This document shows positions 26,441-58,632 of a stretch of DNA of 64,000 nt, piece by piece. Origin of the DNA: Candidatus Levybacteria bacterium RIFCSPLOWO2_02_FULL_37_18 (GTDB taxonomy: Bacteria; Patescibacteriota; Microgenomatia; Levybacterales; UBA12049). The first letter of the stretch is position 1, and each line of letters starts with the position of its first letter. The translations under genes were made by a program, and so were the position numbers. Under the pieces are notes generated by a model. It had not been told where the DNA came from, did not search any database, and saw nothing but the letters and a program-made list of their open reading frames with translations. Where the stretch lies: assembly GCA_001784115.1 (NCBI GenBank), contig MFPD01000019.1:30244-94243 (forward strand), read 5' to 3'.

Positions 26441-26508
26441 GTCATTGCGAGAAACGTAGTAACGAAGCAATCTCTTAATATGAGATTCATTGCTACGCTC
26501 GCAGTGAG
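26441..26508. repeat. Palindromic intergenic element, copy A (GTCATTGCGAG ... GCAATCTC-loop-GAGATTC ... CTCGCAGTGAG)
   Basis: Near-perfect hairpin between the glyQS start and the recO stop. Confidence 0.7.
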
Positions 26509-27116: not shown

Positions 27117-27214
27117 GTCATTGCGAGGAACTTTAGTTCCGAAGCAATCTTTCTATTGTCATGCTGAACTTGATTCAGCATCTCGTGAGATTGCTTCACT
27201 TCGTTCGCAATGAC
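27117..27214. repeat. Palindromic intergenic element, copy B (GTCATTGCGAGG ... TCGCAATGAC with an inner GCTGAActtgatTCAGC hairpin)
   Basis: Terminal inverted repeats and an internal hairpin. Confidence 0.7.
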
Positions 27215-29226: not shown

Positions 29227-29305
29227 GTCATTCTGAACTTGTTTCACCGCGTCTGACGCGGGGTTTCAGAATCTAAAAATAGAGATGCTGAACCAAATTC
29301 AGCAT
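29227..29305. repeat. Palindromic intergenic element, copy C (GTCATTCTGAAC ... CGCGTCTGACGCG ... TTCAGAATC, plus GATGCTGAAccaaaTTCAGCAT)
   Basis: Nested hairpins between the 647-aa gene start and the tyrA-pheA stop. Confidence 0.7.
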
Positions 29306-29313
29306 TACAATAA

Positions 29314-30650: not shown

Positions 30651-30730
30651 GTCATTGCGAGGAGACACGTCTGACGTGTTCGACGTGGCAATCCCCTGAA
30701 TAGAGATTGCTTCGCTTCGCTCGCAATGAC
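30651..30730. repeat. Palindromic intergenic element, copy D
   Basis: GTCATTGCGAGGagacacgtctgacgtgtt ... GCAATC ... GAGATTGCttcgcttcgcTCGCAATGAC. It exactly fills the tyrA / chorismate mutase spacer. Confidence 0.7.
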
Positions 30731-30733
30731 AAT

Positions 30734-31003: not shown

Positions 31004-31011
31004 ACAGAGTC

Positions 31012-31074
31012 GTCATTGCGAGGAACTTGTGACGAAGCAATCTCACCAAGAGATTCCTTCGCTATCGCTCGCAG
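31012..31074. repeat. Palindromic intergenic element, copy E
   Basis: GTCATTGCGAGGaacttgtgacgaaGCAATCTCaccaaGAGATTccttcgctatcgCTCGCAG. It is flush between the aroC stop and the chorismate mutase start. Confidence 0.7.
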
Positions 31075-32187
31075 TTACAGGTAATCATAATTTTGGGCTT
31101 TGTGGCGTAAAAAATGATCCATAATTACCAATGCTGCCATTGCGTCAACAATCGGGACAGCCCGTGGCAAAACACAGGGATCATGTCTACCTGCTGCTTC
31201 AAGTTTTACTTCCTTTTTGTCTTTAGAAACAGTCAACTGCTCTTTTTTAATAGTTGAAACCGGCTTAAAAGCAACCCGAAAGTAAATTGTTTCTCCATTA
31301 GAAATCCCGCCCAAAACTCCTCCTGCATTATTGGTTTTTGTTCGTATCATAGAGTTTTCAAGATGGAATGGATCATTATGATTACTTCCTCGAAGCTTTG
31401 TCCCTTCAAAGCCTAAACCGATATCAAATCCTTTTACAGCGTTTATGGAAAGCATAGCTTTTCCTAAATCCGCATTAAGCTTATCAAACACGGGCTCACC
31501 TAAACCTACGGGTACATTTTTAATAACTCCCCTTACTACTCCGCCAATAGAATCTCCTTCTGATTTGACCTCCTCAATGAGCTTAATCATTTCCTCTGCA
31601 ACTTTGTGGTCAGGACACCTGACAATGTTTGATTCGATTTCTTCCATCGTAACCAAATTAAAATAAATATCAGTCTTAATCTGCCCAACTTGTTCCACAA
31701 AACTAAAAATTTCTACCCCAAGTTTTTCTTTTAAATATTTTTTTGCAATAGCCCCAGCAGCAACTCTGGCTAACGTTTCCCGTGCGGAAGCCCTACCGGA
31801 ACCATGCCAATCTCTAAAACCGTACTTTTTGGTATAGGTAAAATCTGCATGCCCAGGTCTAAATACATCTTTGATTTCCTGATACTCTTCAGGCCGAACG
31901 TCTTTGTTATAAGCCAAAAGTAAAATTGGCGTGCCAGTTGTTTTACCCTCAAAAACTCCTGACATTATTTTTATTTCATCTTCTTCTTTTCGGGGAGTTG
32001 TAATAGAAGATTGTCCCGGTTTTCTTCTGTCTAACTCTTTTTGAATTTCTTCTTCAGAAATTTTAATTCCAGGAGGGCAGCCGTCAACCACGCAACCAAC
32101 CACCCCGCCGTGGGATTCGCCAAACGTTGTAATCCTAAATAAATGTCCAAATGTATTTCCGGCCATAAGATTTCTCTTTTCTGTCAT
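31075..32187 (-). CDS. aroC: Chorismate synthase AroC
   Basis: 370 aa. The canonical N-terminus [21 protein letters not shown] suggests the true start is ~32166. The track start at 32187 lies inside palindromic element copy F. Confidence 0.9.
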
Positions 32188-32236
32188 CCCGGGCTTGACC
32201 CGGGATCAATAGATTCTGAATCAAGTTCAGAATGAC
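32183..32236. repeat. Palindromic intergenic element, copy F (GTCATCCCGGGcttgaCCCGGGATcaatagATTCTGAAtcaagTTCAGAATGAC)
   Basis: Lies between the aroD stop and the probable aroC start. Confidence 0.7.
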
Positions 32237-32237
32237 A

Positions 32238-33721: not shown

Positions 33722-35607
33722 AGTTTTAACAAAATCTCTTCAACAACTTCCTTAGGGCTTAATGTATCTGTTGCTATTATTTCATCTGCTGCCTGTCCAT
33801 ACAAGGTTTTTCGCTGTTTAAGAACCTCTCTTATTTCTTCTTTTCTGTTTTTTTTATTGGTTAAAAAGGGCCTATTTTTGGTATTGCCGGTTCTTTTTAC
33901 TAATGTTTCAACAGAAGCATCAAGCAAAACTAATGTGCCGCTTTTTTTAAGTGTGCTTACACTTTCTGTGTTAATAACAACTCCACCGCCCGTTGAAATA
34001 ATTGTATCAGAATATACGGCAACTTCTTTAACAACATCTGATTCTACTTTTCTAAAATAAGCCCATCCGTATTTTTCAACTATTAGAGCTATTGGCATAC
34101 CGACTTTTTTTGCCAACATCTCATCGAGTTCTATATGATTTTTTTGTAGTTTTTCCGCTAGCAGCTTTGCCACAGTTGTTTTACCGCTTCCCCGCATACC
34201 GATTAAAACAATATTTCTCCTCTTGTCGTTGCGATCCCGCTCAGCGGGAAAAGCAATCTCTGCGAGCTTCATCCAAAAATCAGGAAATGTTTTATTAACT
34301 ACCAAAGGGTTTTGTATTTCCATTCCCGAAAGCCTTGCACCGGCAACGGCAAAAGCCATTGCCATTCTATGATCTCCGTATGTTTCAATAGAAGCAGACT
34401 TTGGATTTCCTCCGTAAATTGTTAGAGTTGAATTGCTAGAGTCAGTTTTAATTCCCATTTTTTTTAATTCGTTTTTAATTGCCAAAAGCCGGTCTGTTTC
34501 TTTGATTTTAAGACTTTTAACACCGTGTATAATTGTAGTTCCATTTGCAAATGCGGCCAAAACCGAAAGGGTCATAACTTGATCCGGACAATTTTCCATA
34601 TTAACGTTTATAGGTCTTATTTTCCCCGAGCCTTTAACTGTCACTGCATTTTTTTTATACAATATTTTATTTCCCATTTTCTCTAAAATCTGCAAAAACT
34701 CTCTGTCAGCTTGCAAAGAATATGGATTAAGATTTTGGATTGTGATTGTTGAACCGGTCAAAGCAGCAATTGCAAAAAAATAAGAAGCGCTGGAAAAATC
34801 TCCTTCAACAGAATATTCTTTCCCGTTATATTTTTGTTTAAACATTTTATAACTTTTGTAGTTATTGTTAATTACGTTTGCTCCAAACTGTTTCATGGTA
34901 TCAATAGTCATATCAATATACTGCTTTGAAATTTGATCCCCCAAAACTTCAATCTCAACACTCCCTACTTTCGGAGCAATCATAAGCAAACTTGAAATAA
35001 ATTGACTACTAACTGATCCTTTTATTTTTACTGTTCCTTCGTTTAGTTTTGAACTTAAAATTTTAACCGGCGGATATCCTTTTTTACCAAGATATTCTAT
35101 TTTTGCACCCATTTGAATTAGGGCATCAACCAAATCTCCAATTGGACGATTGTTAAGTCCTTCTTCTCCAGATACTGTTTTAACTCCGGGAATAATGCAT
35201 GCAAGGGCTAAGATAAACCTCATGGTTGTTCCCGAAAGTCTAGCACTCAAAGAGTACGATTGATTATTCGCCTTGTTGTCATCCCGAACTCGCTTCAGCC
35301 GCGTTTGACGCGGTTTCGGCATCTCTTGTTTCAGCATTTTAGATCCTGAAATACCTTGCCTGCCGGCAGGCAGGAATTCAGGATAACCGGGAAAGATCTC
35401 TATGTAGTTATTTCCTACATGAACATTTACTCCCAGCGCTCTCAAACATCTTATCATCGCCTCCGTGTCTTCACTTACCAAAGGATTGATAATCGTAACC
35501 TTCTTTTCCGTCAAAGCAGCCAAAAATAAAGCTCTATTGGTGTAGCTTTTTGAGCCCGGTATGTCTATGGTTTTTGCAACTGGTTGTTGTAATGGAATAA
35601 TTTTCAT
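33718..35607 (-). CDS. aroA: Bifunctional EPSP synthase (AroA) - shikimate kinase (AroK) fusion; the AroA N-domain carries a ~45-aa palindromic-element-derived insertion
   Basis: 629 aa. The AroA core (IPGSKSYTNRALFLAAL ...) is followed by a C-terminal shikimate kinase P-loop (GMRGSGKTTVAKLLAEKL). The insertion FLPAGRQGISGSKMLKQEMPKPRQTRLKRVRDDNKANNQSYS is encoded by repeat copy G. Confidence 0.85.
   Translation of the reverse strand: MKIIPLQQPVAKTIDIPGSKSYTNRALFLAALTEKKVTIINPLVSEDTEAMIRCLRALGVNVHVGNNYIEIFPGYPEFLPAGRQGISGSKMLKQEMPKPRQTRLKRVRDDNKANNQSYSLSARLSGTTMRFILALACIIPGVKTVSGEEGLNNRPIGDLVDALIQMGAKIEYLGKKGYPPVKILSSKLNEGTVKIKGSVSSQFISSLLMIAPKVGSVEIEVLGDQISKQYIDMTIDTMKQFGANVINNNYKSYKMFKQKYNGKEYSVEGDFSSASYFFAIAALTGSTITIQNLNPYSLQADREFLQILEKMGNKILYKKNAVTVKGSGKIRPINVNMENCPDQVMTLSVLAAFANGTTIIHGVKSLKIKETDRLLAIKNELKKMGIKTDSSNSTLTIYGGNPKSASIETYGDHRMAMAFAVAGARLSGMEIQNPLVVNKTFPDFWMKLAEIAFPAERDRNDKRRNIVLIGMRGSGKTTVAKLLAEKLQKNHIELDEMLAKKVGMPIALIVEKYGWAYFRKVESDVVKEVAVYSDTIISTGGGVVINTESVSTLKKSGTLVLLDASVETLVKRTGNTKNRPFLTNKKNRKEEIREVLKQRKTLYGQAADEIIATDTLSPKEVVEEILLKL
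35278..35375. repeat. Palindromic element, copy G, inside the aroA coding sequence and in frame
   Basis: GTCATCCCGAACtcgcTTCAGcCGCGTTTGACGCGg ... cttGCCTGCCGGCAGGCagg. It shares the CGCGTYTGACGCG and CCTGCCGGCAGG modules with other copies. Confidence 0.65.
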
Positions 35608-35613
35608 ATTGTT

Positions 35614-37520: not shown

Positions 37521-37525
37521 ATGTA

Positions 37526-37556
37526 TAAAAAAACAAAAACTCCCTTCAGGGAGCTA
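37526..37556 (-). terminator. Intrinsic-terminator-like hairpin plus U-tract abutting the DAHP synthase start codon (candidate attenuator)
   Basis: Minus strand reads AGCTCCCTGAAGGGAGTTTTTGTTTTTTT and ends ~6 nt before the ATG. A second small hairpin, CTCCGAAGGGAG, lies ~50 nt upstream. Confidence 0.45.
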
Positions 37557-37738
37557 GCTTGGTCTATTCGTAATTGGTTTTACGACGTCAACAAGCCCTC
37601 CCTTCGGAGTTTATAAAATAAAACCAAAAATAAGCTTCGCGACTTATAATCACACTATAGGTATAGTATACAAAACTCTTTACTCTAAAGTCAAATTAGT
37701 ATTTTCATAAATAACTGTTCACAGTTCTAATACAGACT

Positions 37739-37833
37739 GTCATGCTGGAGTGTAAACGATAGCATCTAATTTTGGGAGGTGGTTCTTCGACCTGCCTGCC
37801 GGCAGGCAGGTCGGCCTTAAGCCTCAAGAATGA
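37739..37833. repeat. Palindromic element, copy M, in the aro-operon leader; includes a perfect 26-bp palindrome CGACCTGCCTGCCGGCAGGCAGGTCG (37788-37813)
   Basis: The ends GTCATGCTGGAG ... CTCAAGAATGAC form imperfect inverted repeats. The GC-rich palindrome is shared with copy G. Confidence 0.6.
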
Positions 37834-37917
37834 CAAGTTTATGTCAAAGGAGTAAACAGTTACCTTTATCTTTGACACCCTTGGGGTGGAAACGAAGCTG
37901 CACCCGCGGATTTTATG

Positions 37918-38709
37918 TTATTTTGAATCTAAATTCTTCATAAATTGTACAACGTTTTTTGAGATTTCAGATGGTTTTGAGAAGTTGATAATGTTAATAA
38001 TTGCGCTGCCTATTACAGCGATATCTGCATGTTTTTTAAGCGCTTTAACATGTTCTTTTTTGGAGATTCCAAAACCCACTGCAAGTGGAATAGAAAAATG
38101 TGAACGTACTTTTTTGAGGTATGAACTTAATTCTGGGTTCAATTCTTCTTTCACTCCTGTTATTCCCTGTCTGGCTGTACAATACACAAATCCTTTGGCG
38201 ATTTTTGCATTTTTTCGCAAACGTTGCTCTGTGGAAGCCGGAGAAATCACTTGAATGTTGTATAGATTAAACGTTTTACTATAAGCATAGAACTTTTCAT
38301 TTCCCTCTTCATCAATTGACATATCCGGAACAATAAGTCCAGAAATTCCTGCAGCTTTTGAATCTTTTATAAACTGTTTAATTCCGTACTTAAACACAGT
38401 ATTATAATACGCCATAAATAAAAGCGAAATAGAAACTTGAGAACTTAAATCTTTGGCAATCTTGAAGCAGTCTCTAACTTTTGTTCCATTATTCAAAGAT
38501 TTCTCGCATGCTTTCATAATTGTTGGCCCATCAGCCAAAGGATCGGAAAAAGGAATTTGAAGCTCGACAAAATCAGCTCCGCATTCTGCCATGGTTTTTA
38601 CTATTTGGACAGTTTTTTCAAGCGTCGGATATCCAACCACAACATGAGTCATGATTCCTAGCTTCTTATTTTTCTTGATTTCTGACAGTTTTTGATCAAT
38701 AGAGTTCAT
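37918..38709 (-). CDS. trpA: Tryptophan synthase alpha subunit TrpA
   Basis: 263 aa with ELQIPFSDPLADGPTI. Confidence 0.9.
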   Translation of the reverse strand: MNSIDQKLSEIKKNKKLGIMTHVVVGYPTLEKTVQIVKTMAECGADFVELQIPFSDPLADGPTIMKACEKSLNNGTKVRDCFKIAKDLSSQVSISLLFMAYYNTVFKYGIKQFIKDSKAAGISGLIVPDMSIDEEGNEKFYAYSKTFNLYNIQVISPASTEQRLRKNAKIAKGFVYCTARQGITGVKEELNPELSSYLKKVRSHFSIPLAVGFGISKKEHVKALKKHADIAVIGSAIINIINFSKPSEISKNVVQFMKNLDSK

Positions 38710-38780
38710 ATTTTATTGAATCATGTTGTATTGCTGCATTGCTAAATTGTTAACAATGAAGCAATCGAACAATTTAACAA

Positions 38781-40004
38781 TCATTGTGTGTACTCTTTCA
38801 AAAATTTCATAAATTTTTTATCGTTGAATGCTTTTGCCAAAATAAACAAATCCTTATCGCCTCTTCCGGAAAGATTGACAACAATTATTTTGTGTTTGGA
38901 AAGTTTTGGTGCAAGTTTTACAGCATGTGCTACTGCATGCGCAGATTCAAGCGCAGGAATAATTCCTTCTGTCCTTGCCAAAAGTCTTACTGCTTCTAAC
39001 GCTTCTCTGTCTTTTGAGCTTACAAATTCTACTCGATTTAAATCATGAAGGTTTGCAAGCTCTGGCCCAATACCCGGATAATCAAGCCCTGCAGAAATGC
39101 TGTAAGTTTTTTGCAGTTGGCCGTCTTTGTTTTGCAAAAAGTATGATTTATATCCCTCTACAATGCCGACCGAACCGCCTTTGAATCGTAACGCATGCTC
39201 ACCTACTTTTTCTCCTTTTCCTCCTGCTTCAACACCTATTAACGTTACTGTTGAGCTTTTTATAAACTCATAAAAAATTCCCATGGCATTGCTTCCTCCA
39301 CCAACACATGCGATAATATAATCGGGTAGTTTCCCTTCTCTTTTTTTCATTTGAACTTTTACTTCTCGTCCAACAATCGACTGAAAATCTCTATTCATTG
39401 TCGGAAACGGATGCGGACCCACAACCGACCCTAATACATAATGCGTATCTTTAACATTTTCTATCCAGTCTTTAATTGCAGCATTCACTGCATCTTTTAA
39501 CGTTTTACTGCCAAAAGCAACCGGAACTACAGTTGCACCTAACTGTTCCATTAAAAAAACATTCTGCCGCTGTCTTTGTATATCTACTTCTCCCATATAT
39601 ACTGTGCAGGAAAACCCGAGTTTTGCTGCAACTGTTGCAGTCGCAACGCCATGCTGTCCTGCTCCGGTTTCTGCAATAAGTCTTTTTTTGCCAATTTTTT
39701 TTGCAACCAAAGCTTGTCCTATACAATGAGTAATTTTATGAGCGCCGGTTAGGTTTGCTCCTTCATTTTTTAAATATATTTTTGCGCCACCTAATCTTTT
39801 TGTGAGGTTTTCAGCAAATACCAATGGAGTCGGCCTCCCTGCAAAATTATTGAGTAAATCGGTAAATTCTTTTTGAAAAGAATCATCTTTTTTTGCAACC
39901 GTGTATGCTTTTTCCAATTCTTCAAGAGCCGGAATTAACATCTCCGGGACATATCTCCCGCCGTATAGTCCGAAGTGACCATTATTTTGATGTTTATTTT
40001 TCAT
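38781..40004 (-). CDS. trpB: Tryptophan synthase beta subunit TrpB
   Basis: 407 aa with [13 protein letters not shown] and [11 protein letters not shown] motifs. Confidence 0.95.
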
Positions 40005-40054
40005 GATTATAAATTTTAAACATTAAAAATTGAATAAAAATTAAAAATTTCAAA

Positions 40055-40681
40055 TTAAAAATTCTTTTTCGCTTCTCTTATAAATTTTCTAATCTTTTCA
40101 ATATCTTGTTTTCCGTCTGTCTCGACCCCAGATGCGACATCTACAATCTGTGGTTTTACTTTCTTTATAACGTCTGCGACATTCTCTGGATTTAAACCTC
40201 CTGCAAAGATTAAAGGAAATTCTTTTGCTAAAACACTAGCTTTTTCTAAATTAATCATTTGCCCCTCGCTTTGTTCTATTCTGTCTAAAAGATAAACATC
40301 TACCTTAAACTGCTTCATTTGTTTTCTCGCATCTTCAATGTCAAAATCTCCTGGAAATCTAAATGCTTTTATTGTTTTTATTTTTATTTGTTTTATATAC
40401 TCCTGTGGTTCGTCACCATGAAACTGAGCGTAATCTAAATTACACGTCTCAATTATTTTCTGTACTTGATTAAGTGGCATATTTTGAAAAACGCCAACTA
40501 AATTAATTTTGCCTTTCAACTGTTTGCTAATTTCTTTTACAACCTCACTATCTACAGTATGAGTTTTAATACGTGGTGTAAATACAAACCCTAAAAAATC
40601 AGCACCACCTTCAAAAGCAACTTCTGCTGCTTCCAAACTTCTTGTCGCGCAAATTTTAACTTTTACTTTCATAGTTTTCAA
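40055..40681 (-). CDS. trpF: Phosphoribosylanthranilate isomerase TrpF
   Basis: 208 aa. The track start is a TTG; an ATG at 40670-40672 (MKVKVKICATRS) is a likelier start. Confidence 0.8.
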   Translation of the reverse strand: MKTMKVKVKICATRSLEAAEVAFEGGADFLGFVFTPRIKTHTVDSEVVKEISKQLKGKINLVGVFQNMPLNQVQKIIETCNLDYAQFHGDEPQEYIKQIKIKTIKAFRFPGDFDIEDARKQMKQFKVDVYLLDRIEQSEGQMINLEKASVLAKEFPLIFAGGLNPENVADVIKKVKPQIVDVASGVETDGKQDIEKIRKFIREAKKNF

Positions 40682-40684
40682 TCT

Positions 40685-40770
40685 GTCATTACGAGGAGGT
40701 CGCTTGATGCGACCGACGCGGCAATCTCCTAATCGTAAAACTACGATTGCTTCACTTCGTTCGCAATGAC
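40685..40770. repeat. Palindromic element, copy H; its distal inverted repeat encodes the last codons and stop of trpC
   Basis: GTCATTACGAGGaggtcgcttgatgcgaccgacgcgGCAATCTCctaatcgtaaaactacGATTGCttcacttcgtTCGCAATGAC. The coding strand of trpC ends ...ttg tca ttg cga acg aag tga (LSLRTK*). Confidence 0.7.
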
Positions 40771-41549
40771 AATATAAAATCTTTTATATTTTTCGCTTTC
40801 ATTAAACTCGTTCCCACAAGCACTCCTTTTGCTCCTGCTTCCCTATATTTTTGAACTTCTTGCGAACTTTTGATTCCTGAGAATCCCAGTTTTATAAATT
40901 TGTCTGGAACTTGTTTTAGAATTTCAGATGCTCTATCAACATCCACCTCAAAAGTATCCAAATCTCTTGCGTTAACTGCAATTATATATGGTTTTGAGTC
41001 GATCGCTCTTTCTATATGTTCTAAACTATCAATTTCAACAACTGGTTCAATACCTAAACCTATGGCATATTGAACTAATTCAGAAAGTTTTTTGTTACCA
41101 ACAATTCTTGCAATTAAAAGCACCGCATCAGCGCCTGATTTTATACCTTCGGCAATTTGATATGTATCAATAATAAAATCTTTCATAAGAATGGGAAGAT
41201 TGGTATTTTTCTTAATTTGATCAATTAGTTTAATATCTCCATTAAAAAAATGTTTTTCAACAACTAAAGAAATTGCATCAGCGTCTGCTTTTTCATATGC
41301 TTTTACCCGCTTTAGAATAGTTTTTTTTGAACCAAGATCTCCTTCACTTGGAGACGCTAACTTAATCTCCGCAATCAGAGTAATATCTTTTTTTGGATTG
41401 AGAATCGAATTCCTGAAATTACTCAAATTATAAACCGTTCCTTTTCGAGATTCTGGATGCGCCTTCGGCTTACCAGAATGACGTTTTTTTCTTTTTTTCA
41501 AATCTCTTTTTGTTTGCTCAACTATTTTTTGAAGTATTTTATTTTTCAT
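40752..41549 (-). CDS. trpC: Indole-3-glycerol phosphate synthase TrpC
   Basis: 265-aa TIM barrel. The C-terminus LSLRTK is contributed by repeat copy H. Confidence 0.85.
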   Translation of the reverse strand: MKNKILQKIVEQTKRDLKKRKKRHSGKPKAHPESRKGTVYNLSNFRNSILNPKKDITLIAEIKLASPSEGDLGSKKTILKRVKAYEKADADAISLVVEKHFFNGDIKLIDQIKKNTNLPILMKDFIIDTYQIAEGIKSGADAVLLIARIVGNKKLSELVQYAIGLGIEPVVEIDSLEHIERAIDSKPYIIAVNARDLDTFEVDVDRASEILKQVPDKFIKLGFSGIKSSQEVQKYREAGAKGVLVGTSLMKAKNIKDFILSLRTK

Positions 41550-42576
41550 ATTTTTGCGTTTCTTTTATTAATTGCTCTAATACTTGTTTTGCTTTTCCGC
41601 TATCAATTGCCTCTTGAGCCTTTTCAATTCCCTGCTCAATTGAGCTTGCTTTTCCAGCGACATATAATCCCAAAGCGCTGTTTAAAATAACAATATCACG
41701 ACATTGTCCTTTTTTACCATCTAAAACATTTAAAATAATCTCTGCATTCGTTTTCGAATCTGCTCCTTTTATTTTGTTTTGCGAAGCTTTTTTTACTCCA
41801 AAATCAGCAGGACTCACTATTCTTGATTTTATTTTTTTGCCTTGCACTTCGAGTACATGAGTTTTTGCAGAAATACTTACCTCATCCATTCCATCTTCAC
41901 TTGTTACCAATAACAAATGTTTATACCCAAATTCTTTACCAACACGTGCTAATTTTTTGGCTATAGAAAGATTTGGAACACCAATAATCTGCCTTTTTAC
42001 AGAAGCCGGATTTAAAAACGGACCAAGCAAATTAAAAATTGTTGGAATACCTAATTCTTTTCTAACAGAAGCTATAAATTTCATTGTCGGATGAAATAAT
42101 TGCGCGAATAAAAATACCATGCCTACTTTTTCTAAAACCAAACTTGCTTGAGAAGTGTTTAAATTAATATTCACTCCCAAACTTTCCAACACATCCGCGC
42201 TTCCACATTTACTGCTTGCTGCTCTATTACCATGCTTAGCTACCCTTACACCAGCTCCTGCAACTACAAATGCTGTTGCCGTAGAAATATTAAACGTCTG
42301 TTTTCCGTCTCCACCGGTACCACATACATCTATTGAATTTTTAACTTTTAACTTTGAACTTTGAACTTTTATCATATACTTCCTCATTCCTTCTATAAAC
42401 CCTACAATCTCCTCAGCTGTTTCTCCTTTTGACTTTAAAAGAATAAGAATTGCTGCCATTTGAGTAGGGCCAATCTTCCCCTCTGCCATTTGGCAAACAA
42501 GAAAAAAAGCCTCTTTCTGAGTAAGATTTTCTTTTGCTATTAATTTTATAAACAACTGTTTTGTATCCATATTCAT
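41539..42576 (-). CDS. trpD: Anthranilate phosphoribosyltransferase TrpD
   Basis: 345 aa with a DVCGTGGDGKQTFNISTA motif. It has an in-frame heptamer-repeat insertion encoding KVQSSKLKVKN. Confidence 0.9.
   Translation of the reverse strand: MNMDTKQLFIKLIAKENLTQKEAFFLVCQMAEGKIGPTQMAAILILLKSKGETAEEIVGFIEGMRKYMIKVQSSKLKVKNSIDVCGTGGDGKQTFNISTATAFVVAGAGVRVAKHGNRAASSKCGSADVLESLGVNINLNTSQASLVLEKVGMVFLFAQLFHPTMKFIASVRKELGIPTIFNLLGPFLNPASVKRQIIGVPNLSIAKKLARVGKEFGYKHLLLVTSEDGMDEVSISAKTHVLEVQGKKIKSRIVSPADFGVKKASQNKIKGADSKTNAEIILNVLDGKKGQCRDIVILNSALGLYVAGKASSIEQGIEKAQEAIDSGKAKQVLEQLIKETQKYEK
42333..42370. repeat. Tandem heptamer repeat (TTGAATT/TTTAACT/TTGAACT)x~5 in frame inside trpD
   Basis: ttgaatttttaacttttaactttgaactttgaactttt, encoding KVQSSKLKVKN. 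Confidence 0.8.
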
Positions 42577-42583
42577 CTACTTG

Positions 42584-42625
42584 TCATTGATTCCTTAATT
42601 GTCATTCTAAACTTGATTCAGAATC
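42584..42625. repeat. Palindromic element, copy I (GTCATTCTAAACttgaTTCAGAATC); one arm supplies the trpG RF* terminus
   Basis: The coding strand of trpG ends ...aga ttc tga within the TTCAGAATC arm. Confidence 0.6.
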
Positions 42626-43217
42626 TAAACAAAAAATTTTCAAGCATAATTTTTCCTGCTTCTGTTGCAAATGATTCCGGATGAAACTGAACTCCCTCAA
42701 TTGGATATTCCTTGTGTCTTAATCCCATAATCTCACCATCATCTTGTACTGTTGCTGTTATTTCCAAACAGTTGGGCAATGAACTTTTCTCCGCAATCAA
42801 AGAATGATATCGCATTACTTCTAAATTTTGCGGTAATCCAAAAAATACCCCCTTTCCATCGTGTTTAATAGTACTTGTTTTTCCATGCATTGGTTTTTTT
42901 GCTCTAACAACTTTTCCGCCGAAGTAATGCGCCATTCCCTGCATTCCAAGACATACACCAAGTATTGGAATGTGTTTTTCTAACTCTGTTAGAACTTCAG
43001 CGCAAGCTCCAAAGTATGCTTTATCAGCAGGATTACCTGGGCCAGGAGAGATAATAATTCTATCGTATTTTTTCTCTTGAATTTCGGAAAGCGTTATATC
43101 GTCATTACGAAAAACATCTACGGCAAATGGTTTTTCCCTTTGCTCTAAAATTTCTCCTACATACTGATATAAATTAAAAGTAAACGAATCGTAATTGTCT
43201 AGTATAAGTATTTTCAT
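42618..43217 (-). CDS. trpG: Anthranilate synthase component II (glutamine amidotransferase) TrpG
   Basis: 199 aa with a GVCLGMQ nucleophile elbow and an HPES motif. Confidence 0.9.
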   Translation of the reverse strand: MKILILDNYDSFTFNLYQYVGEILEQREKPFAVDVFRNDDITLSEIQEKKYDRIIISPGPGNPADKAYFGACAEVLTELEKHIPILGVCLGMQGMAHYFGGKVVRAKKPMHGKTSTIKHDGKGVFFGLPQNLEVMRYHSLIAEKSSLPNCLEITATVQDDGEIMGLRHKEYPIEGVQFHPESFATEAGKIMLENFLFRF

Positions 43218-44563
43218 AATTTTTTTAAAACTTCCATTATTGCTTTTAATTTTCTTTCAATTTCTTCATATTCCTTTTCTGGTTTTGAATCACAAACAAT
43301 TCCACCGCTTGTTTGGGTATAACCAAATTCACCTAAAAAAAATAAGGATCTGATTGCAATAGCAAATGTACAGTCACCATTAAAACCAAATTGTCCAACA
43401 GCCCCACCATATACACCCCGCGCCTCTTTTTCCAAGCTTTCAATTATTTTTATCGACTCTATTTTAGGAGCACCGGTTAAAGTACCTGCCGGAAAATTAC
43501 TTGCAAGCGCAGAAAACATTGTCTGCCCATTTTTCATAATTCCTACAATTTCGCTTGAAATATGCTGGACATGGGAAAATTTTTTTACATTCATAAAATC
43601 CCGTACTTTTACCGTCCCAAACTTTGCAACTCTTCCAATATCATTTCTATGCAAATCCACCAGCATATTATGTTCTGCTACTTCTTTTGAATCTGACAAT
43701 AAATCGCGGGCTAGCTTCTTATCTTCCTTAAGATTTTTCCCTCTTTTAATTGTTCCTGCTAAAGGTCTTGTTACCATTTCTCCATCCCGAAGAGAAAATA
43801 ATAACTCTGGTGAAGCACCAATTATCCTTTTTTTATTAAACTTTAAATAGTACATAAAAGGAGAAGGATTAATTTTACGAAGCCTTTCGTACATTAAAAG
43901 ACTATCTCCTTGTATTTTAAATTTTGTTTTAAATCCTACTTCGCATTGAAACGTATTTCCCAAGAGAATATGTTTTTGTACATTCCTGACTTGTTTTTCG
44001 TGTTCTGCTTTAGAAGAAGTATTTCCTAAAAATTTCGCTTTTAGCATTAGTTTTTTAGTAGGTTTTTTTAATAAATCTTTAAGTATTTCTATCCTGTTTT
44101 CGTCATAATAAAAATAAAACAATTCGTTGGTAACTTTGTCAAAAATTACGCCATCCGTATATACCCCAAACATAAATTGATCAAAATCGTGATTAACTTT
44201 AACCGACAAACTACTTTCAAAATAGTTAATTGCATCATAGGCAAGATAACCAACTAACCCCCCTGCATAATTTTTAGAAATTGTATAAGAAGGCATAATA
44301 TTTTCAAGAGCAAAATAGGGATTTTTAACCGGATATGCTATTCCGTCAAAAAATAGTAAATTTTCTCGTGCAGAAATTACGTGTTTTGGAGCAAGTCCAA
44401 TAATTGAATATCTGGAGAATTTTCCTTCCTCTCCCAATGATTCAAAAATAAAACACGTATCAAACTCTTGCTCTATTTTTTTAAACAGACCATGGAAATC
44501 AATATCTTGAGCAAAAGAGACATACGTTGGTTTCTTTTGTAATGTTATTTTTGGTAATTTCAT
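43214..44563 (-). CDS. trpE: Anthranilate synthase component I TrpE
   Basis: 449-aa chorismate-binding fold (GAVGQFGFNGDCTFAIAIRS). Confidence 0.9.
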   Translation of the reverse strand: MKLPKITLQKKPTYVSFAQDIDFHGLFKKIEQEFDTCFIFESLGEEGKFSRYSIIGLAPKHVISARENLLFFDGIAYPVKNPYFALENIMPSYTISKNYAGGLVGYLAYDAINYFESSLSVKVNHDFDQFMFGVYTDGVIFDKVTNELFYFYYDENRIEILKDLLKKPTKKLMLKAKFLGNTSSKAEHEKQVRNVQKHILLGNTFQCEVGFKTKFKIQGDSLLMYERLRKINPSPFMYYLKFNKKRIIGASPELLFSLRDGEMVTRPLAGTIKRGKNLKEDKKLARDLLSDSKEVAEHNMLVDLHRNDIGRVAKFGTVKVRDFMNVKKFSHVQHISSEIVGIMKNGQTMFSALASNFPAGTLTGAPKIESIKIIESLEKEARGVYGGAVGQFGFNGDCTFAIAIRSLFFLGEFGYTQTSGGIVCDSKPEKEYEEIERKLKAIMEVLKKL

Positions 44564-44569: not shown

Positions 44570-44830
44570 ATAAACAAAAACCCTTGTAAATTTCCAAACG
44601 TTTTCTGTTTGACTATTTACAAGGGCCTCTTAATGAGACGGTGCCACCTTGTTTATTTACTTATTCATGCTCTTCTTTTCTTAGTCCAGCCAAGCGGATA
44701 AAAAACAAAGAGTGCTGTCTTCTTAGGGTTTCGCCTCCCCCGCATTACGTCAGTCGCGTTTGACGCGATGAATTTTGCGAAAGCTTCCTGGATCCAAACT
44801 TCCAGATCACAGCTTTTAAAACTACATTAC
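44570..44830 (-). ncRNA. Candidate T-box riboswitch leader (tRNA-Trp sensing) with terminator and antiterminator, controlling trpEGDCFBA
   Basis: The minus strand has a T-box core AGGUGGCACCGUCUC, 9/10 match to GGUGGUACCG. Terminator: GGCCCTTGTAAAT ... ATTTACAAGGG + TTTTTGTTT ending 8 nt before the trpE ATG. The alternative antiterminator pairs ACAAGG with CCTTGT, leaving a UGGCACC bulge. A UGGA sits in an upstream hairpin loop (CTGGAaguuUGGAuCCAG). Confidence 0.55.
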
Positions 44831-47689: not shown

Positions 47690-48809
47690 AAACTTCCAAT
47701 GTCTTATACGTTAAATCTCTCCAGGAAAATTTTTTCACCAATAGTAAACCTTTCTTTTTTTGCGACTCTATTCTATCATCTTTTTTTAATACCCGCATGA
47801 AAACTCCACCAATGCTTGAAACATTTTTTGGATCAAAGTAAAAAGCTGCATCGCCAACTATTTCTCTATGAACCACGATATCTGATAACATCACCAAACA
47901 ATTATTACTCATTGCTTCTATGACTGGCAGGTCAAATCCCTCCATACGTGCTGGACTCACAAGCGCTTTTGCATTTTTATAAAGCTCTGCAAGCTCTCTG
48001 TCTGTAACATATCCATAAAAAATTAATGAGTGATCTATTCCATTTGAAATAACATATTTCTTTAATTTCCTATAAAAATAATCCTCTTTCCCAACCAAGA
48101 CAAGTTTGAGATCTTTATGAACTTTATGAACAAAATCTTGAACAAGTAACTGTTTAAACGCATCAATTAATCTAACTAAGTTCTTGTGTGGATACGCATT
48201 CCCAACGTAAAGAAAGTATGAACCTTTAGGTAATTGGTATTTATTTGAAATTTGAAATTTGAAATTTGAAATTTTTTTGTCTATTCCTTCATACGTCACA
48301 ACTATTTTTTCCGGATCAACTTTATAGTGATCAATTATCTCTTTTTTTGTTGCTTGCGATACGGTAATTATTTTTTGCGCTCTATTAATTGCATGGCTTA
48401 TCACATGCTTATATCCTAATCGTTTTAACTGATAAATCCCCAACGGAAGAGTCGATGCCTCTCCTGTATCAAAATGATTAATAATCAAATCATGAATGGT
48501 AACTACAAAACTCCCCTTGTAAAAAATAGGCACAGAAAAATAAGGAAAATGAACAAGATCAAGTGTTTCTTTGTTTAGAATTTTTGGAAATTGTATTTGT
48601 TCTTCAATCGTATGCCACCGAATGTTCGTTCGAACAACCTTGAACTTGTCATCCTGAACTTGATTCAGTATCTCTTGTTCATCCTTTTCCAAACAAAACA
48701 ATACATACTCATTCTTCTGACCAAGTTTATGCAGTTGACCAACAAGATTTCGAATATATCTTCCAACTCCGCTCTCATTCCACAATCTTACATCGATACC
48801 AATCCTCAT
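47658..48809 (-). CDS. Glycosyltransferase family 1 (GT4-type) with two in-frame repeat insertions
   Basis: 383-aa GT-B fold. It carries a heptamer-repeat peptide KKISNFKFQISNKYQ in the interdomain linker and a palindromic-element copy K encoding EQEILNQVQDDK near the N-terminus. Confidence 0.7.
   Translation of the reverse strand: MRIGIDVRLWNESGVGRYIRNLVGQLHKLGQKNEYVLFCLEKDEQEILNQVQDDKFKVVRTNIRWHTIEEQIQFPKILNKETLDLVHFPYFSVPIFYKGSFVVTIHDLIINHFDTGEASTLPLGIYQLKRLGYKHVISHAINRAQKIITVSQATKKEIIDHYKVDPEKIVVTYEGIDKKISNFKFQISNKYQLPKGSYFLYVGNAYPHKNLVRLIDAFKQLLVQDFVHKVHKDLKLVLVGKEDYFYRKLKKYVISNGIDHSLIFYGYVTDRELAELYKNAKALVSPARMEGFDLPVIEAMSNNCLVMLSDIVVHREIVGDAAFYFDPKNVSSIGGVFMRVLKKDDRIESQKKKGLLLVKKFSWRDLTYKTLEVYESCHRLRSG
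48244..48275. repeat. Tandem heptamer repeat (TTTGAAA)x4 in frame inside the GT4 gene 47658..48809
   Basis: tttgaaatttgaaatttgaaatttgaaattttttt, encoding ISNFKFQISN. Confidence 0.9.
48648..48672. repeat. Palindromic element, copy K (GTCATCCTGAACttgaTTCAGTATC), inside the GT4 coding sequence and in frame
   Basis: It is the same hairpin module as copies C, I and L. Confidence 0.6.
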
Positions 48810-56842: not shown

Positions 56843-57985
56843 TTATTTTTCTTCTACAATCTGCTCCAAAACAGTAAGTGTAAGACGTGCGGTTTTTTCC
56901 CAACTAAATTTTTCTACTTGAATTTTTCCTTTTTCTATTAGCTCTGATCTAAGTTTTACATTGTTAAGCAACAATGCCATTTTTTCTTTTATATCCTGAG
57001 TATCTAATGGATTAACATACAAGGCTGCGTTTCCTCCTGCTTCCGGAAGACTGCTAACATTGCTGGTTATGACCGGACAACTATATTTCATCGCTTCCAA
57101 AACAGGTAAACCAAAACCTTCATACAAACTGGGAAGAACAAAAAATAATGCGTTTTTATAAAGTTGGGCTAATTCTTTATCCGTTGCAAAATCCAAAAAC
57201 TTAACACTTTGTTCTACGTTAAATTTTCTAGGAGCATCCAAAATTTCTTCATATAACCATCCCTTTTTACCAACAATCACAAGATCAATATCTTTTTTAT
57301 CCAAGAGAGAAAACGCCTCGATGAGTCTAACAATATTTTTCCTCGGCTGAAGCGTCCCCACGAATAAAATGTAGTTTTTTTTTATATTAAATCTCTCCTG
57401 TAAAACTTTTGACTTTTGCATTGTAATTTTGAATTTTGAATTTTGAATTTTGAATTTAATTCCCGGGTATGTTACCACTACTTTATCTTCTAAAACCCCG
57501 TACTGTTTGATTATATCACCTTTACTTGCGTTGCTTATAGTAAAGATCTTTTTAGCCTTTTTCACCGAATAACGAGTCCAATTTTTAAGCTGAAATAAGT
57601 CAGATTGTTTAAAAAGCTCCGGAAAATGCAGAAAAGACAAGTCCATCACAGATATTGCACAAGGAACAGGGGAAAATCTGGGAGCATAATGTGTGGGTGT
57701 AAAAAAAACATCAGAACGTGGAGAGTGAAGAAACAAATCAATTGGCAATCCAATCTGCGTCCACAATTTCTTAGGTCCAACGATTCGATACTTCCATCCT
57801 GGCCTTTCCTTTGGTAAATCATTAATTGGTTTGTTCTTTACATATATTATGAATTGGAAATTGGAAATTGGAAATTGGAAATTTTCGAATTGTTTTATCA
57901 ATTCGAATGCGTATTCTCCAATTCCTACTCTTTGACTTTCATTTGCTTCATTTCCATCGATACCTATTATCATAGTGAGTGTCAT
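56843..57985 (-). CDS. Glycosyltransferase family 1 (GT4-type) with two in-frame heptamer-repeat insertions
   Basis: 380-aa GT-B fold. It carries NFQFPISNFQF in the N-terminal domain and KFKIQNSKFKI after YPGI in the interdomain linker. The track ATG lies inside palindromic element L, so an internal start at ~57973 (MIIGIDG) is possible. Confidence 0.7.
   Translation of the reverse strand: MTLTMIIGIDGNEANESQRVGIGEYAFELIKQFENFQFPISNFQFIIYVKNKPINDLPKERPGWKYRIVGPKKLWTQIGLPIDLFLHSPRSDVFFTPTHYAPRFSPVPCAISVMDLSFLHFPELFKQSDLFQLKNWTRYSVKKAKKIFTISNASKGDIIKQYGVLEDKVVVTYPGIKFKIQNSKFKITMQKSKVLQERFNIKKNYILFVGTLQPRKNIVRLIEAFSLLDKKDIDLVIVGKKGWLYEEILDAPRKFNVEQSVKFLDFATDKELAQLYKNALFFVLPSLYEGFGLPVLEAMKYSCPVITSNVSSLPEAGGNAALYVNPLDTQDIKEKMALLLNNVKLRSELIEKGKIQVEKFSWEKTARLTLTVLEQIVEEK
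57424..57458. repeat. Tandem heptamer repeat (GAATTTT)x~5 in frame inside the GT4 gene 56843..57985 (linker)
   Basis: taattttgaattttgaattttgaattttgaattta, encoding KFKIQNSKFKI. Confidence 0.9.
57851..57885. repeat. Tandem heptamer repeat (GAATTGG/AAATTGG)x5 in frame inside the GT4 gene 56843..57985 (N-domain)
   Basis: gaattggaaattggaaattggaaattggaaatttt, encoding NFQFPISNFQF. Confidence 0.9.
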
Positions 57986-58005
57986 TCTGAACTCGTTTCA
58001 GAATC
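57981..58005. repeat. Palindromic element, copy L (GTCATTCTGAACtcgTTTCAGAATC)
   Basis: It sits exactly at the junction between the truncated GT4 paralog and the full GT4 gene. Confidence 0.6.
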
Positions 58006-58632
58006 TCAAATTCCCGGATATAACACTTTTAATCTGTTTTCTTCAATACCTAAAATTTCCATTGCGTCCTTTTTTGTTGCTTCTGAAATACAGAAAATCA
58101 TATCTGATTCTTTTTTTACCCATTGTAATTTTCTTTTTTGAACATCAACGATTTTCTTATCTGTTTCGTTGGGAAATTTATAAACAATAGTGTCATATAA
58201 AATAGTAGCTTTTTTTGCTTTTAAAACAGGCGGTTCTGTCCAGTCGGAAGAAATAAACAAATCTACATCTCCAATAAGCCACTCGATCGGAAAAATATGA
58301 AATTTGTTCCAAAGTATATCAAGAAAAGAAGGGGGTATCTTGAATTTTTTTATTTGAACATTATGATTTGATTGAAAATTGAAAATTGAAAATTGAAAAT
58401 TTCTTCTCATGCTTGAAAAAAATAATACGTATTCATTTTTTGTATCCAACTCAATTACGTTTTGAACCAAATTACGAAGATACTCCGAAACTCCTGTTTC
58501 TTCATAGGCTATTTGCGAAACATCAATTCCTATTTTCATTTTTTTCGATAAAAGAATAGTTGTTGGATGATTGACAAGAGAAAAAAAGCTGCCGCGTACC
58601 AAACAAGACGTTCTGCGGTAAAAAATATCCAT
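58006..58632 (-). pseudogene. Truncated GT4 paralog (N-terminal Rossmann half only); tandem partial duplicate of the downstream GT4 gene
   Basis: The 208-aa ORF ends ...LKVLYPGI*, at the position equivalent to VVVTYPGI in the 56843..57985 gene. It has the same heptamer-derived NFQFSIFNFQ peptide. The likely start is MKIGIDVSQ (~58539). Confidence 0.5.
58366..58401. repeat. Tandem heptamer repeat (ATTGAAA)x4 in frame inside the truncated GT4 paralog
   Basis: atttgattgaaaattgaaaattgaaaattgaaaatt, encoding NFQFSIFNFQ. Confidence 0.9.

What the first reader, a model, noticed from the sequence alone, without database searches (positions are those of the whole stretch)
40752..42626. Palindromic elements donate stop codons and terminal residues to flanking genes (trpC, trpG, aroC, GT4)
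The distal inverted repeat of copy H encodes the last six codons and the stop of trpC: ttg tca ttg cga acg aag tga gives LSLRTK*. The TTCAGAATC arm of copy I encodes the RF* end of trpG (aga ttc tga). The ORF-track starts of aroC (32187) and of the GT4 gene (57985) use ATGs inside the GTCAT core of copies F and L, although canonical N-termini ([11 protein letters not shown]; MIIGIDG) begin just downstream.

So the elements have either replaced native gene ends or inserted so precisely that they now define translation boundaries. This is a hallmark of Correia/RPE-type elements, which can also carry promoter and RBS functions.
Basis: seen in the sequence. Interest (0 to 1): 0.55.

Follow-up and report, generated by a model that had tools for sequence, protein, structure and literature searches.

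The report
Hairpin repeats rewrite operon gene ends
A family of small mobile hairpin repeats (CGTC-tagged REP / Neisseria NTS type) has inserted into the tight gene junctions of the tryptophan/aromatic amino-acid operon of an uncultured Microgenomates bacterium, replacing a few last residues and the stop codons of some enzymes; this behaviour is already known for such repeats elsewhere.

Summary
trpC ends (L)SLRTK* inside unit 40743-40770, and trpG ends (R)F* inside unit 42601-42627. The long-ORF ATGs of aroC and a GT4 gene lie in ATGAC, the reverse complement of the GTCAT head; the real starts are just downstream.

The repeats are real: 22 clear units of the form (T/C)GTC–AT-stem–loop–stem-AT–C, mostly paired tag-outward. 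Removing the 86-bp dimer at trpC leaves FILD*KL* plus the ATGA overlap with trpF, which matches element-free relatives codon for codon. So the element landed five codons before the native stop, and its TGA is carried by an identical copy elsewhere. The native trpG tail KLRNQ* was replaced in the same way. The aroC stop sits in a mutated head, and four genes carry in-frame copies.

The family is the CGTC-tagged REP superfamily (Di Nocera 2013; Rickettsia RPE-4/-6, Neisseria dRS3/NTS, the ssDNA targets of Ssn nucleases), not Correia. REP termini supplying stop codons and intragenic REPs are already described there. Promoter or RBS roles have no support here.

Newer points are the CPR host, a long-stem TTGCGA variant, and the same trpC codon being hit in many lineages. 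Verdict: new member of a known kind, of modest interest.

The parts
40685..40770 (.). Tag-outward (HH) dimer between trpC and trpF: unit 40685-40729 (+) and unit 40743-40770 (-). It contains the last five codons and the TGA of trpC (stop at 40752-40754).
   Evidence: The short unit is 26/26 identical to copy 27189-27214. The RNA fold of the junction is -36.9 kcal/mol, z = -4.2.
40670..40684 (-). Relic of the native trpC end (aGAT TGA AAA CTA TGA = D * K L *), with the ancestral ATGA overlap onto the trpF start (ATG at 40672-40670).
   Evidence: After removing the dimer, the sequence aligns codon for codon with L017: F I N D L K I * + ATGAAAG.
42601..42627 (+). Single unit GTCATTCTAAACTTGATTCAGAATCTA between trpG and trpD. 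It supplies 2 nt of the Arg codon, the Phe codon and the TGA of trpG (42618-42620).
   Evidence: None of 28 relatives has a unit at this junction. Removing it gives NFLFKLRNQ*; L081 has NFLFK*.
41447..41482 (-). Single unit in frame inside trpC, encoding RHSGKPKAHPESR in the variable N-terminal loop.
   Evidence: Orthologue P0010/L087 has a whole dimer in frame in the same loop.
32183..32236 (.). HH dimer between aroD (stop 32238-32240) and aroC. The ATG of its ATGAC end (32187-32185) is the spurious long-ORF start of aroC; the real start is at 32166.
31012..31078 (.). HH dimer between aroC and the chorismate mutase gene. Its degenerate head GTAAC (31074-31078) contains the aroC stop TAA (31075-31077).
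   Evidence: Removing it gives ...NYDYLTLYE*, overlapping the chorismate mutase start.
30651..30730 (.). HH dimer between chorismate mutase (30734-31003) and the prephenate dehydrogenase/dehydratase gene. Unit 30703-30730 is the commonest variant, GTCATTGCGAGCGAAGCGAAGCAATC.
29227..29308 (.). HH dimer downstream of the PDH/PDT gene. Unit 29227-29275 carries a nested GC hairpin; unit 29282-29308 has a degenerate head (GTAAT).
27117..27214 (.). Three units (+,+,-) between the DUF4012 gene and recO, ending 12 nt before the recO ATG.
26441..26508 (.). HH dimer (second unit degenerate) between recO and a class II aminoacyl-tRNA synthetase gene, 8 nt before its ATG.
35278..35387 (.). HH dimer with nested hairpins, in frame inside the EPSP synthase domain of the aroA-aroK fusion. 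It is a 35-aa insertion (YPEFLPAGRQGISGSKMLKQEMPKPRQTRLKRVRDD).
   Evidence: and the alignment with L081.
34225..34260 (+). Single unit (head GTCGT) in frame in the EPSPS-shikimate kinase linker, encoding EIAFPAERDRND.
48648..48672 (+). Single unit in frame in a GT4 glycosyltransferase (47658-48809), encoding ILNQVQDD.
57981..58007 (+). Single unit between ORF 58006-58632 and the GT4 gene. The upstream stop TGA (58006-58008) overlaps the unit's tail, and the ATG of ATGAC (57985-57983) is the spurious GT4 ORF start.

Best explanation
The window comes from a low-GC Microgenomates (CPR/Patescibacteria) genome. Its trp-aro supra-operon has been colonised by small non-autonomous hairpin repeats of the CGTC-tagged REP / NTS-SRM class.

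**The unit.** Each unit has an unpaired (T/C)GTC tag, a hairpin whose stem begins with AT, and a C immediately after the stem. Units occur singly or as tag-outward (HH) dimers.

**What happened (shown).** Ancestrally the genes were translationally coupled through ATGA overlaps. Elements inserted between a T and an A, with no visible target duplication, a few nucleotides upstream of the next gene's ribosome-binding region. That position lies inside the last codons of the upstream gene. Translation then runs into the element until it meets a stop carried by the element:
- TGA in the GTGAAGC variant at trpC;
- TGA in the TTCTGAA stem at trpG;
- a stop created by mutation of the head (GTCAT to GTAAC) at aroC.

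**Why only some insertions are seen (inferred).** Copies survive only where the coding change is harmless: C-terminal tails, surface loops and inter-domain linkers. The head read as x-SLR mimics the native F-I-x-x-L-[KR] end of TrpC.

**How they spread (inferred from the literature).** Spread probably goes through single-stranded DNA hairpins handled by a trans-acting enzyme. An Ssn-type GIY-YIG nuclease is the best candidate.

**Other effects (inferred).** The effects on expression of the neighbouring genes are by-products: lost translational coupling and a strong mRNA hairpin at the junction.
For: **Repeat family and structure**
- Searches give 22 clear units. The tag base is T in 17, C in 4 and G in 1. 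There are 7 HH dimers plus one three-unit cluster that also has its tags outward, and no tag-inward dimer.

**Relatives identify the host and the ancestral state**
- Relatives are Levy-, Davies-, Roizman- and Gottesmanbacteria.
- Most of them have the trpC stop overlapping the trpF ATG.
- Junctions in the window that lack an element still have ATGA overlaps.

**Excision tests**
- Removing the element restores the frame, a native-type tail and the ATGA overlap in the window, L006 and L086.
- The same works for trpG and aroC when compared with L081.

**The stop at trpC came with the element**
- The trpC-end unit is 26/26 identical to 27189-27214, including the TGA.

**In-frame copies**
- aroA carries a 35-aa insertion relative to L081.
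- In-frame copies also lie in the aroA-aroK linker, the TrpC loop and a GT4 gene.
- Orthologue L087 has an in-frame dimer in the same TrpC loop.

**Literature**
- PMC3733652 defines CGTC REPs by tag, AT-initiated 8-9 bp stem, 4-5 nt loop, tail, HH dimers, intragenic copies and no transposase. It equates them with RPE-4/-6 and dRS3, and notes that REP termini often supply stop codons.
- PMC11893778 shows that the GTC upstream of the palindrome and the C just after it are the determinants of SsnA cleavage and binding. These are exactly the invariant columns in the window units.
Against: - No nuclease or transposase gene was found in the window or in related loci.
- The published SRM search string gives 0 matches in the window, because the stems here are AT-rich and the tails differ.
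- The TTGCGA-type units have a 5-bp outer stem with internal loops, outside the 8-9 bp / 4-5 nt definition.
- Some isolated AT-rich units are no more stable than shuffled sequence when folded as DNA.
- No near-identical strain with an empty site was available, so recent mobility is inferred rather than seen.
- Across 201 TTGCGA units in IMG/VR loci, stop codons of long ORFs are not enriched inside units: 7.5% against 8.9% for random segments. Stop donation is therefore incidental and not a property of the family.
Confidence: 0.8

Rival explanations
1. The hairpins are native, selected intercistronic RNA elements (processing, stability or attenuation signals) of the trp/aro operon. On this view the gene ends simply overlap them and no insertion took place.
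For: The units sit at operon junctions 7-16 nt before the next start codon. The dimer forms a strong RNA hairpin. REPs are known to act on mRNA (PMC3733652).
Against: The units are absent from the same junctions in most relatives. They also occur in frame inside coding sequence. The same units occur next to unrelated genes and in unrelated phyla and viral contigs. Relics of the native ends persist downstream.
Confidence: 0.07
2. Chance or convergence: the TrpC and TrpG C-termini are native, and the element arms merely resemble them.
For: x-L-[KR] is a native C-terminal motif of TrpC. Some orthologues encode SLR with other codons, for example L024/L028 with tca ctc aga.
Against: The trpC-end unit is 26/26 identical to another copy, with a full partner unit beside it. 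The displaced native end is still recognisable downstream. Orthologue tails such as SLRATERSVAI are a translated whole unit.
Confidence: 0.02
3. The element at the trpC end is one ancient insertion inherited by many Microgenomates and precisely lost in others, rather than recurrent insertion at a favoured site.
For: It has the same codon and phase in seven DNA-verified lineages. The window clusters with P0003 and P0023, which also carry it.
Against: Carriers are scattered in at least 9 places of the TrpC tree, next to element-free sisters. Copies resemble other copies in their own genome (26/26 in the window), although the proteins are only about 50% identical. The lineages carry monomers, dimers and different unit types. 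The tree is a rough NJ tree, and the carriers were picked by their SLR signature, which biases the sample.
Confidence: 0.25
4. The elements are Correia-like or other transposase-driven MITEs that bring promoters or ribosome-binding sites to neighbouring genes.
For: ATGAC ends are followed by purine-rich stretches just before start codons. Correia elements are known to affect neighbouring gene expression (my own knowledge, not checked here).
Against: There is no TA duplication, no long terminal inverted repeats, and units are only 25-49 nt. The purine-rich stretches lie outside the element and correspond to native sequence. Promoter-like sites are not enriched.
Confidence: 0.03

Closest known systems
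CGTC-tagged REPs (Di Nocera, De Gregorio & Rocco 2013, PMC3733652)
   Same: Both have an unpaired CGTC/TGTC tag, a stem beginning with AT, an 8-bp stem and 5-nt loop in the short units, a short tail beginning with C, and predominantly tag-outward (HH) dimers, often heterodimers. Both include intragenic in-frame copies and copies close to or overlapping the 3' ends of ORFs. No adjacent transposase is seen in either.
   Different: The host is a CPR/Microgenomates bacterium; the paper lists only Proteobacteria, Chlorobi, Bacteroidetes, Spirochaetes and Thermotogae. The tail is CTC/CTA rather than CCA. Half of the units are a TTGCGA type, with a 5-bp outer stem, G/A internal loops and a variable inner hairpin, which lies outside the four described families.
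Neisseria NTS/dRS3 and Ssn-related motifs, targets of the SsnA GIY-YIG ssDNA nuclease (Chenal et al. 2025, PMC11893778)
   Same: Both have the (C/T)GTCAT-palindrome-ATC architecture. The GTC before the stem and the C after it are invariant here, and these are the experimentally critical bases. Both cluster around particular genes.
   Different: The published SRM search string finds nothing in the window. No ssn gene was seen in 64 kb. No biochemical link has been made for these AT-rich or long-stem variants.
Rickettsia palindromic elements (RPE; RPE-4 and RPE-6 are CGTC REPs according to PMC3733652)
   Same: Both insert in frame into protein-coding genes at tolerated positions and add short peptides.
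   Different: The classical RPE-1 is longer (about 100-150 bp, from my own knowledge). Sequence similarity to RPE-4/-6 was not tested.
GTAG REPs / REPINs mobilised by RAYT transposases
   Same: Both are tagged hairpins that form inverted doublets. GTAG REP termini often supply stop codons (PMC3733652).
   Different: The tag is GTAG rather than GTC, and those elements are associated with RAYT genes.
Neisseria Correia elements
   Same: Both are small intergenic inverted-repeat elements that can abut genes.
   Different: Correia elements are about 100-156 bp, with 26-bp terminal inverted repeats and a TA target duplication (my own knowledge). None of these features is present here.

Membership tests
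CGTC-tagged REP superfamily | Unpaired terminal tag CGTC (often TGTC) | tested here: met
   The base before GTC is T in 17, C in 4 and G in 1 of 22 units. G2 and T3 are invariant in alignment A2; the C of GTC is changed in one degenerate copy.
CGTC-tagged REP superfamily | Stem of 8-9 bp beginning with A-T, T-A; loop of 4-5 nt | tested here: inconclusive
   Met by the short class: 8-bp stem, CTYGW loop, 98.6% of cells paired, 4 of 8 pairs compensatory. Not met by the TTGCGA class, which has a 5-bp ATTGC/GCAAT outer stem with internal loops and an inner hairpin.
CGTC-tagged REP superfamily | Three-base unpaired tail, consensus CCA | tested here: inconclusive
   The first tail base C is invariant. 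The tail reads CTC, CTA or CAA in the window, and CCA/CCAG in the deltaproteobacterial loci.
CGTC-tagged REP superfamily | Dimers mostly with tags outside (HH); TT dimers rare | tested here: met
   Seven HH dimers, one three-unit cluster with its tags outward, and no TT dimer in the window.
CGTC-tagged REP superfamily | Intragenic in-frame copies, and copies close to or overlapping ORF 3' ends | tested here: met
   In-frame copies lie in aroA (two sites), trpC and a GT4 gene. The stop codons of trpC, trpG and aroC lie inside units, and the stop of ORF 58006-58632 overlaps a unit tail.
Ssn-related motif (SRM/NTS) | Match to the published degenerate search string HGTCWYN(0-2)YYVSBRHN(0-5)WNVSBRGN(0-2)RNCYNB | tested here: not met
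   There are 0 matches in the window. The CCCGGG unit fails only in its tail; the AT-rich stems fail at the S positions.
Ssn-related motif (SRM/NTS) | GTC upstream of the palindrome and C immediately after it (determinants of SsnA cleavage and binding) | tested here: met
   The C after the stem is invariant and GTC is kept in all but one degenerate copy. This was compared with the mutagenesis results in PMC11893778.
Ssn-related motif (SRM/NTS) | A cd10448 GIY-YIG (ssn) gene in the genome, typically flanked by the motif | not testable with these tools
   No such ORF was found in the window, in 87 loci or in 120 viral loci, using motif and phmmer searches with consensus sequences recalled from memory. 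The rest of the genome is not available.
Correia elements | About 100-156 bp, 26-bp terminal inverted repeats, TA target duplication | tested here: not met
   Units are 25-49 nt and dimers 54-110 bp. The flanks are T...A with no duplication. Excision alignments fit zero target duplication.
GTAG REP / REPIN-RAYT | GTAG/GTGG tag and an associated RAYT gene | tested here: not met
   The tag is GTC followed by AT. No Y1 transposase was noticed, although the window's ORFs were only partly scanned.
Rickettsia palindromic elements | In-frame insertion into protein-coding genes | tested here: met
   Sequence relatedness to RPE-4/-6 was not tested.

The most novel reading that the evidence does not exclude
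In Microgenomates these GTC-tagged hairpins would be an active ssDNA-based system, with an Ssn-like nuclease as partner, that targets a defined position: T^A just upstream of the ribosome-binding site of translationally coupled genes. On this reading the same trpC codon was hit independently in nine or more lineages because of targeting, not merely because selection tolerates insertions there. The head, read as SLR, would serve as a ready-made replacement for the C-terminal helix.
Probability: 0.15. Interest if true: 0.6.

Novelty: new member of a known kind. Interest (0 to 1): 0.36.

Why it matters
**Annotation.** In CPR metagenome-assembled genomes these repeats shift called starts (aroC, GT4). 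They also create element-coded C-termini and internal peptides, and can fuse or truncate genes: TrpC-TrpF is fused through a unit in L085, and a GT4 fragment in the window ends at a unit.

**Biology.**
- It extends CGTC-REP/NTS-type hairpins to the Candidate Phyla Radiation.
- It gives clean before-and-after examples of how such repeats break translational coupling and rewrite gene ends.
- It suggests looking for Ssn-type nucleases in these reduced genomes.

It does not reveal a new kind of system.

Tried and rejected
- **Rfam** (evalue mode, whole window) has no family for the units. There are no tRNAs in the window.
- **Literature searches** by element sequence and by element-encoded peptides found nothing relevant. 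A search for CPR together with palindromic elements also found nothing.
- **The SRM regex** from Chenal et al. gives 0 hits.
- **GIY-YIG/Ssn ORF searches** found only two UPF0213-like genes in L019 and L025, not flanked by units, and nothing in the window or the viral loci. The searches used a motif regex and phmmer with consensus sequences I recalled from memory. I ran no further search on a recalled consensus.
- **The supplements** of both key papers held no usable sequences.
- **My first permissive hairpin scan** (stem of 5 or more) was no better than shuffles (20 against 19) and was replaced by strict criteria.
- **The DNA of the closest non-identical orthologue**, P0003, could not be fetched.
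- **The idea that units generally donate stop codons** was tested on 201 units from IMG/VR and rejected.
Full report
**1. What is at the locus**

The window is 35% GC and almost all genes lie on the minus strand. Positions 37.9-44.6 kb hold trpE, trpG, trpD, trpC, trpF, trpB and trpA. Downstream, at 29.3-37.5 kb, lie the genes for DAHP synthase, DHQ synthase, an EPSP synthase-shikimate kinase fusion, shikimate dehydrogenase, dehydroquinase, chorismate synthase, chorismate mutase and a prephenate dehydrogenase/dehydratase (the same order is seen in L081). The best TrpC relatives are Levy-, Davies-, Roizman- and Gottesmanbacteria, so the host is a Microgenomates (CPR) bacterium.

**2.

- trpC ends ttG TCA TTG CGA ACG AAG TGA, and trpG ends aGA TTC TGA. 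Both stops lie inside repeat units.
- The mechanical ORF starts of aroC (32187) and of the GT4 gene (57985) are the ATG of ATGAC, the reverse complement of the GTCAT head. The canonical N-termini follow 7 and 4 codons later.
- The Daviesbacteria AroC starts MAGNTFGNLFR. The GT4 paralogue in the window starts MRIGID.

**3. The repeats are a real family**

Each unit reads (T/C)GTC, then a hairpin whose stem starts with AT, then a C. I catalogued 22 clear units plus a few decayed ones. Twenty of the 22 lie between 26.4 and 42.6 kb.

There are two classes:
- a short class with an 8-bp stem and a CTYGW loop (stems TTCTGAA, GCTGAA, CCCGGG);
- a longer TTGCGA class, GTCATTGCGA...GCAATC, with a 5-bp outer stem, G/A internal loops and a variable inner hairpin.

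Counts are far above chance. Exact GTCATTGCGA occurs 7 times against 0.06 expected, and strict short units occur 6 times against 0.05. On nine short units (six from the window, three from deltaproteobacterial loci), 98.6% of cells pair and 4 of 8 pairs show compensatory changes. In that alignment the G and T of the tag, the AT that opens and closes the stem, and the C after the stem are invariant; the C of GTC is changed in one degenerate copy.

Units pair with their tags outward: seven dimers plus one three-unit cluster, and none with tags inward. Usually the two partners are different unit types.

**4. They are insertions that displaced native gene ends**

In most relatives the trpC stop overlaps the trpF start as ATGA. 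Junctions in the window that lack an element still have such overlaps: trpE/G, aroG/B, aroK/E and aroE/D.

- **trpC.** Removing exactly GTCAT...ATGAC (40685-40770, 86 bp) leaves TTT ATA TTA GAT TGA AAA CTA TGA AAG. This aligns codon for codon with L017 (TTT ATA AAT GAT TTA AAA ATA TGA AAG): F-I-x-D-L-K-x-stop, with the ATGA overlap. The only difference of note is one TTA to TGA change in the relic, which no longer codes. So the element entered five codons before the native stop, and FILDLKL* became FILSLRTK*.
- **The same test in relatives.** It restores SFILGIIL* plus ATGA in L006, and EFLIKIL* plus ATGA in L086.
- **No target duplication.** In the four intact window dimers and in L006 and L086 the flanks are T...A, and the excision alignments fit zero duplication.
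- **The stop came with the element.** The trpC-end unit is 26/26 identical to 27189-27214, TGA included.
- **trpG.** Removing the unit gives NFLFKLRNQ*. L081 has NFLFK*, and none of 28 relatives has a unit at this junction.
- **aroC.** The stop TAA lies in a mutated head (GTAAC). With a canonical head the frame would read on for 23 codons. Removing the element gives ...YDYLTLYE*, overlapping the chorismate mutase start.
- **ORF 58006-58632.** Its TGA overlaps the GAGAT tail of unit 57981-58007.

**5. Copies inside genes**

- An HH dimer with nested hairpins sits in frame in the EPSP synthase domain, a 35-aa insertion relative to L081.
- A single unit sits in the EPSPS-shikimate kinase linker, encoding EIAFPAERDRND.
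- A single unit sits in the variable N-terminal loop of TrpC, encoding RHSGKPKAHPESR.
- A single unit sits in a GT4 glycosyltransferase, encoding ILNQVQDD.
- Orthologue P0010 (L087) has a whole dimer in frame in the same TrpC loop.

All catalytic-core columns of TrpC remain conserved.

**6. A recurrent site**

Of the 120 best TrpC hits, 17 end in F-x-x-SLR followed by element-type peptides, for example SLRATERSVAI, which is a whole unit translated. DNA was checked in seven lineages: the window, L006, L081, L082, L084, L085 and L086. Six have GTCATTGCG at the same codon and phase; L082 has CTCATTGCGA there. They appear as a monomer, a dimer or a decayed copy, and in L085 the unit fuses TrpC to TrpF.

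Carriers are scattered over a rough NJ tree, next to element-free sisters. Native tails follow F-I-x-x-L-[KR]-x-x, and some encode SLR with other codons (L024/L028). The head read as SLR therefore mimics the native helix.

My reading is inference. Insertions must lie upstream of the next gene's ribosome-binding region but as late as possible in the upstream gene, and in a phase that gives a harmless tail. That leaves a very narrow tolerated window, so the same site recurs. Targeting, or a single ancient insertion, cannot be excluded. Because I chose the carriers by their SLR signature, the 'same phase' result is partly built in.

**7. What the family is**

Di Nocera et al. 2013 (PMC3733652) define CGTC-tagged REPs as follows:
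- a CGTC/TGTC tag;
- an 8-9 bp stem starting with AT;
- a 4-5 nt loop;
- a 3-nt tail;
- HH dimers predominant;
- intragenic copies;
- no dedicated transposase.

They equate these repeats with Neisseria dRS3 and with Rickettsia RPE-4 and RPE-6. They also note that GTAG REP termini often supply stop codons, that REPs overlap ORF ends, and that REPs at N-termini are often annotation artefacts.

Chenal et al. 2025 (PMC11893778) show that the Neisseria NTS (CGTCATTCCCGCG...GGGAATC) is bound and cut, as ssDNA only, by the 94-aa GIY-YIG nuclease SsnA. The GTC before the palindrome controls cleavage and the C after it controls binding. These are exactly the conserved positions in the window units.

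Several points are missing or do not fit:
- Their degenerate search string finds nothing in the window.
- I found no ssn-like ORF in the window or in any fetched locus.
- Similar short units occur in the Desulfobacterales loci fetched by chance.
- The TTGCGA type occurs in at least 120 IMG/VR contigs of widely varying GC content. The commonest variant there is identical to window copy 30703-30730.

The family is therefore widespread and not specific to CPR. Correia membership fails on size, terminal repeats and target duplication.

**8. Function**

The trpC/trpF dimer folds as RNA into one long composite hairpin of -36.9 kcal/mol (z = -4.2), with the stop codon inside it and the trpF start 12 nt beyond it. 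It must have abolished the ancestral stop-start coupling. Whether it also alters mRNA stability or translation is not shown.

Promoter-like and terminator-like sites are not enriched, and only one unit looks terminator-like. Across 201 units in IMG/VR loci, stops of long ORFs are not enriched inside units. Stop donation is therefore a by-product of insertion into very tight junctions.

**9. Verdict**

It is wrong about the family (not Correia) and unsupported on promoter or RBS roles.

This is a new member of a known kind: CGTC-REP/NTS-like repeats in a CPR genome. The long-stem variant and the recurrent trpC site are modest novelties. Its main practical value is for annotating CPR genomes.

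Noticed in passing
window 44618-44819 (-): Weak full-length T-box leader match (27 bits, E = 0.047, below the gathering score of 93) directly upstream of trpE. It may be a tRNA-Trp-sensing leader for the trp operon.
   Followed up: no
window 37521-37917 (-): The 397-nt spacer between trpA and the DAHP synthase gene contains three features: a promoter-like site (37694-37665); a perfect GC palindrome, CGACCTGCCTGCCGGCAGGCAGGTCG (37788-37813), flanked by decayed units; and a terminator-like hairpin with a T-run (37555-37538) about 10 nt before the DAHP synthase ATG. It looks like a leader or attenuator for the aro genes.
   Followed up: partly
window 35356-35373 and 37792-37809: The same GC palindrome core (CTGCCTGCCGGCAGGCA) occurs twice: once nested in the loop of the intragenic aroA unit and once in the trpA-aroG spacer. 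This is a second-level hairpin repeat that rides inside the first. Unit 29227-29275 carries another nested hairpin, CCGCGTCTGACGCGG.
   Followed up: partly
window 58006-58632 (-): This 208-aa ORF matches only the N-terminal Glyco_transf_4 domain and stops exactly at unit 57981-58007, directly before a complete GT4 gene. It may be a truncated gene, with the unit marking a deletion or recombination junction.
   Followed up: partly
window 38724-38779: The trpB-trpA spacer holds a 56-nt imperfect palindrome containing GATTGCTTCA...GCAATAC. It is probably a decayed TTGCGA-type unit or dimer.
   Followed up: no
window 29314-44563: A complete tryptophan plus shikimate/chorismate/prephenate supra-operon lies in a CPR genome, in the same order as in a Daviesbacteria genome (L081). 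This is unusual for a group generally described as lacking amino-acid biosynthesis.
   Followed up: partly
L085 3001-4155; L005, L007-L009, L019: TrpC and TrpF are fused in several relatives. In L085 the fusion runs through a decayed unit (FLMSLRETSQDGTLYKTLVKICG), which suggests that an element insertion can create a bifunctional gene.
   Followed up: partly
L019 about 1100-1700 (-): A small GIY-YIG ORF sits next to a tRNA gene and is bracketed by a direct repeat of the tRNA 5' end (aaatattgcgggatcgtct). It looks like a homing-type insertion unrelated to the GTC-tagged units.
   Followed up: no
window, whole: Nearly every gene lies on the minus strand, and GC skew on the plus strand is negative throughout. 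Four of the five single units have their GTCAT head on the plus strand; the numbers are too small to test for orientation bias.
   Followed up: no
P0002 versus window trpC: A 95%-identical TrpC in the protein database lacks 8 residues in the middle (TILKRVKAY region) but keeps the SLRTK tail. It is either a strain variant or an assembly problem.
   Followed up: no
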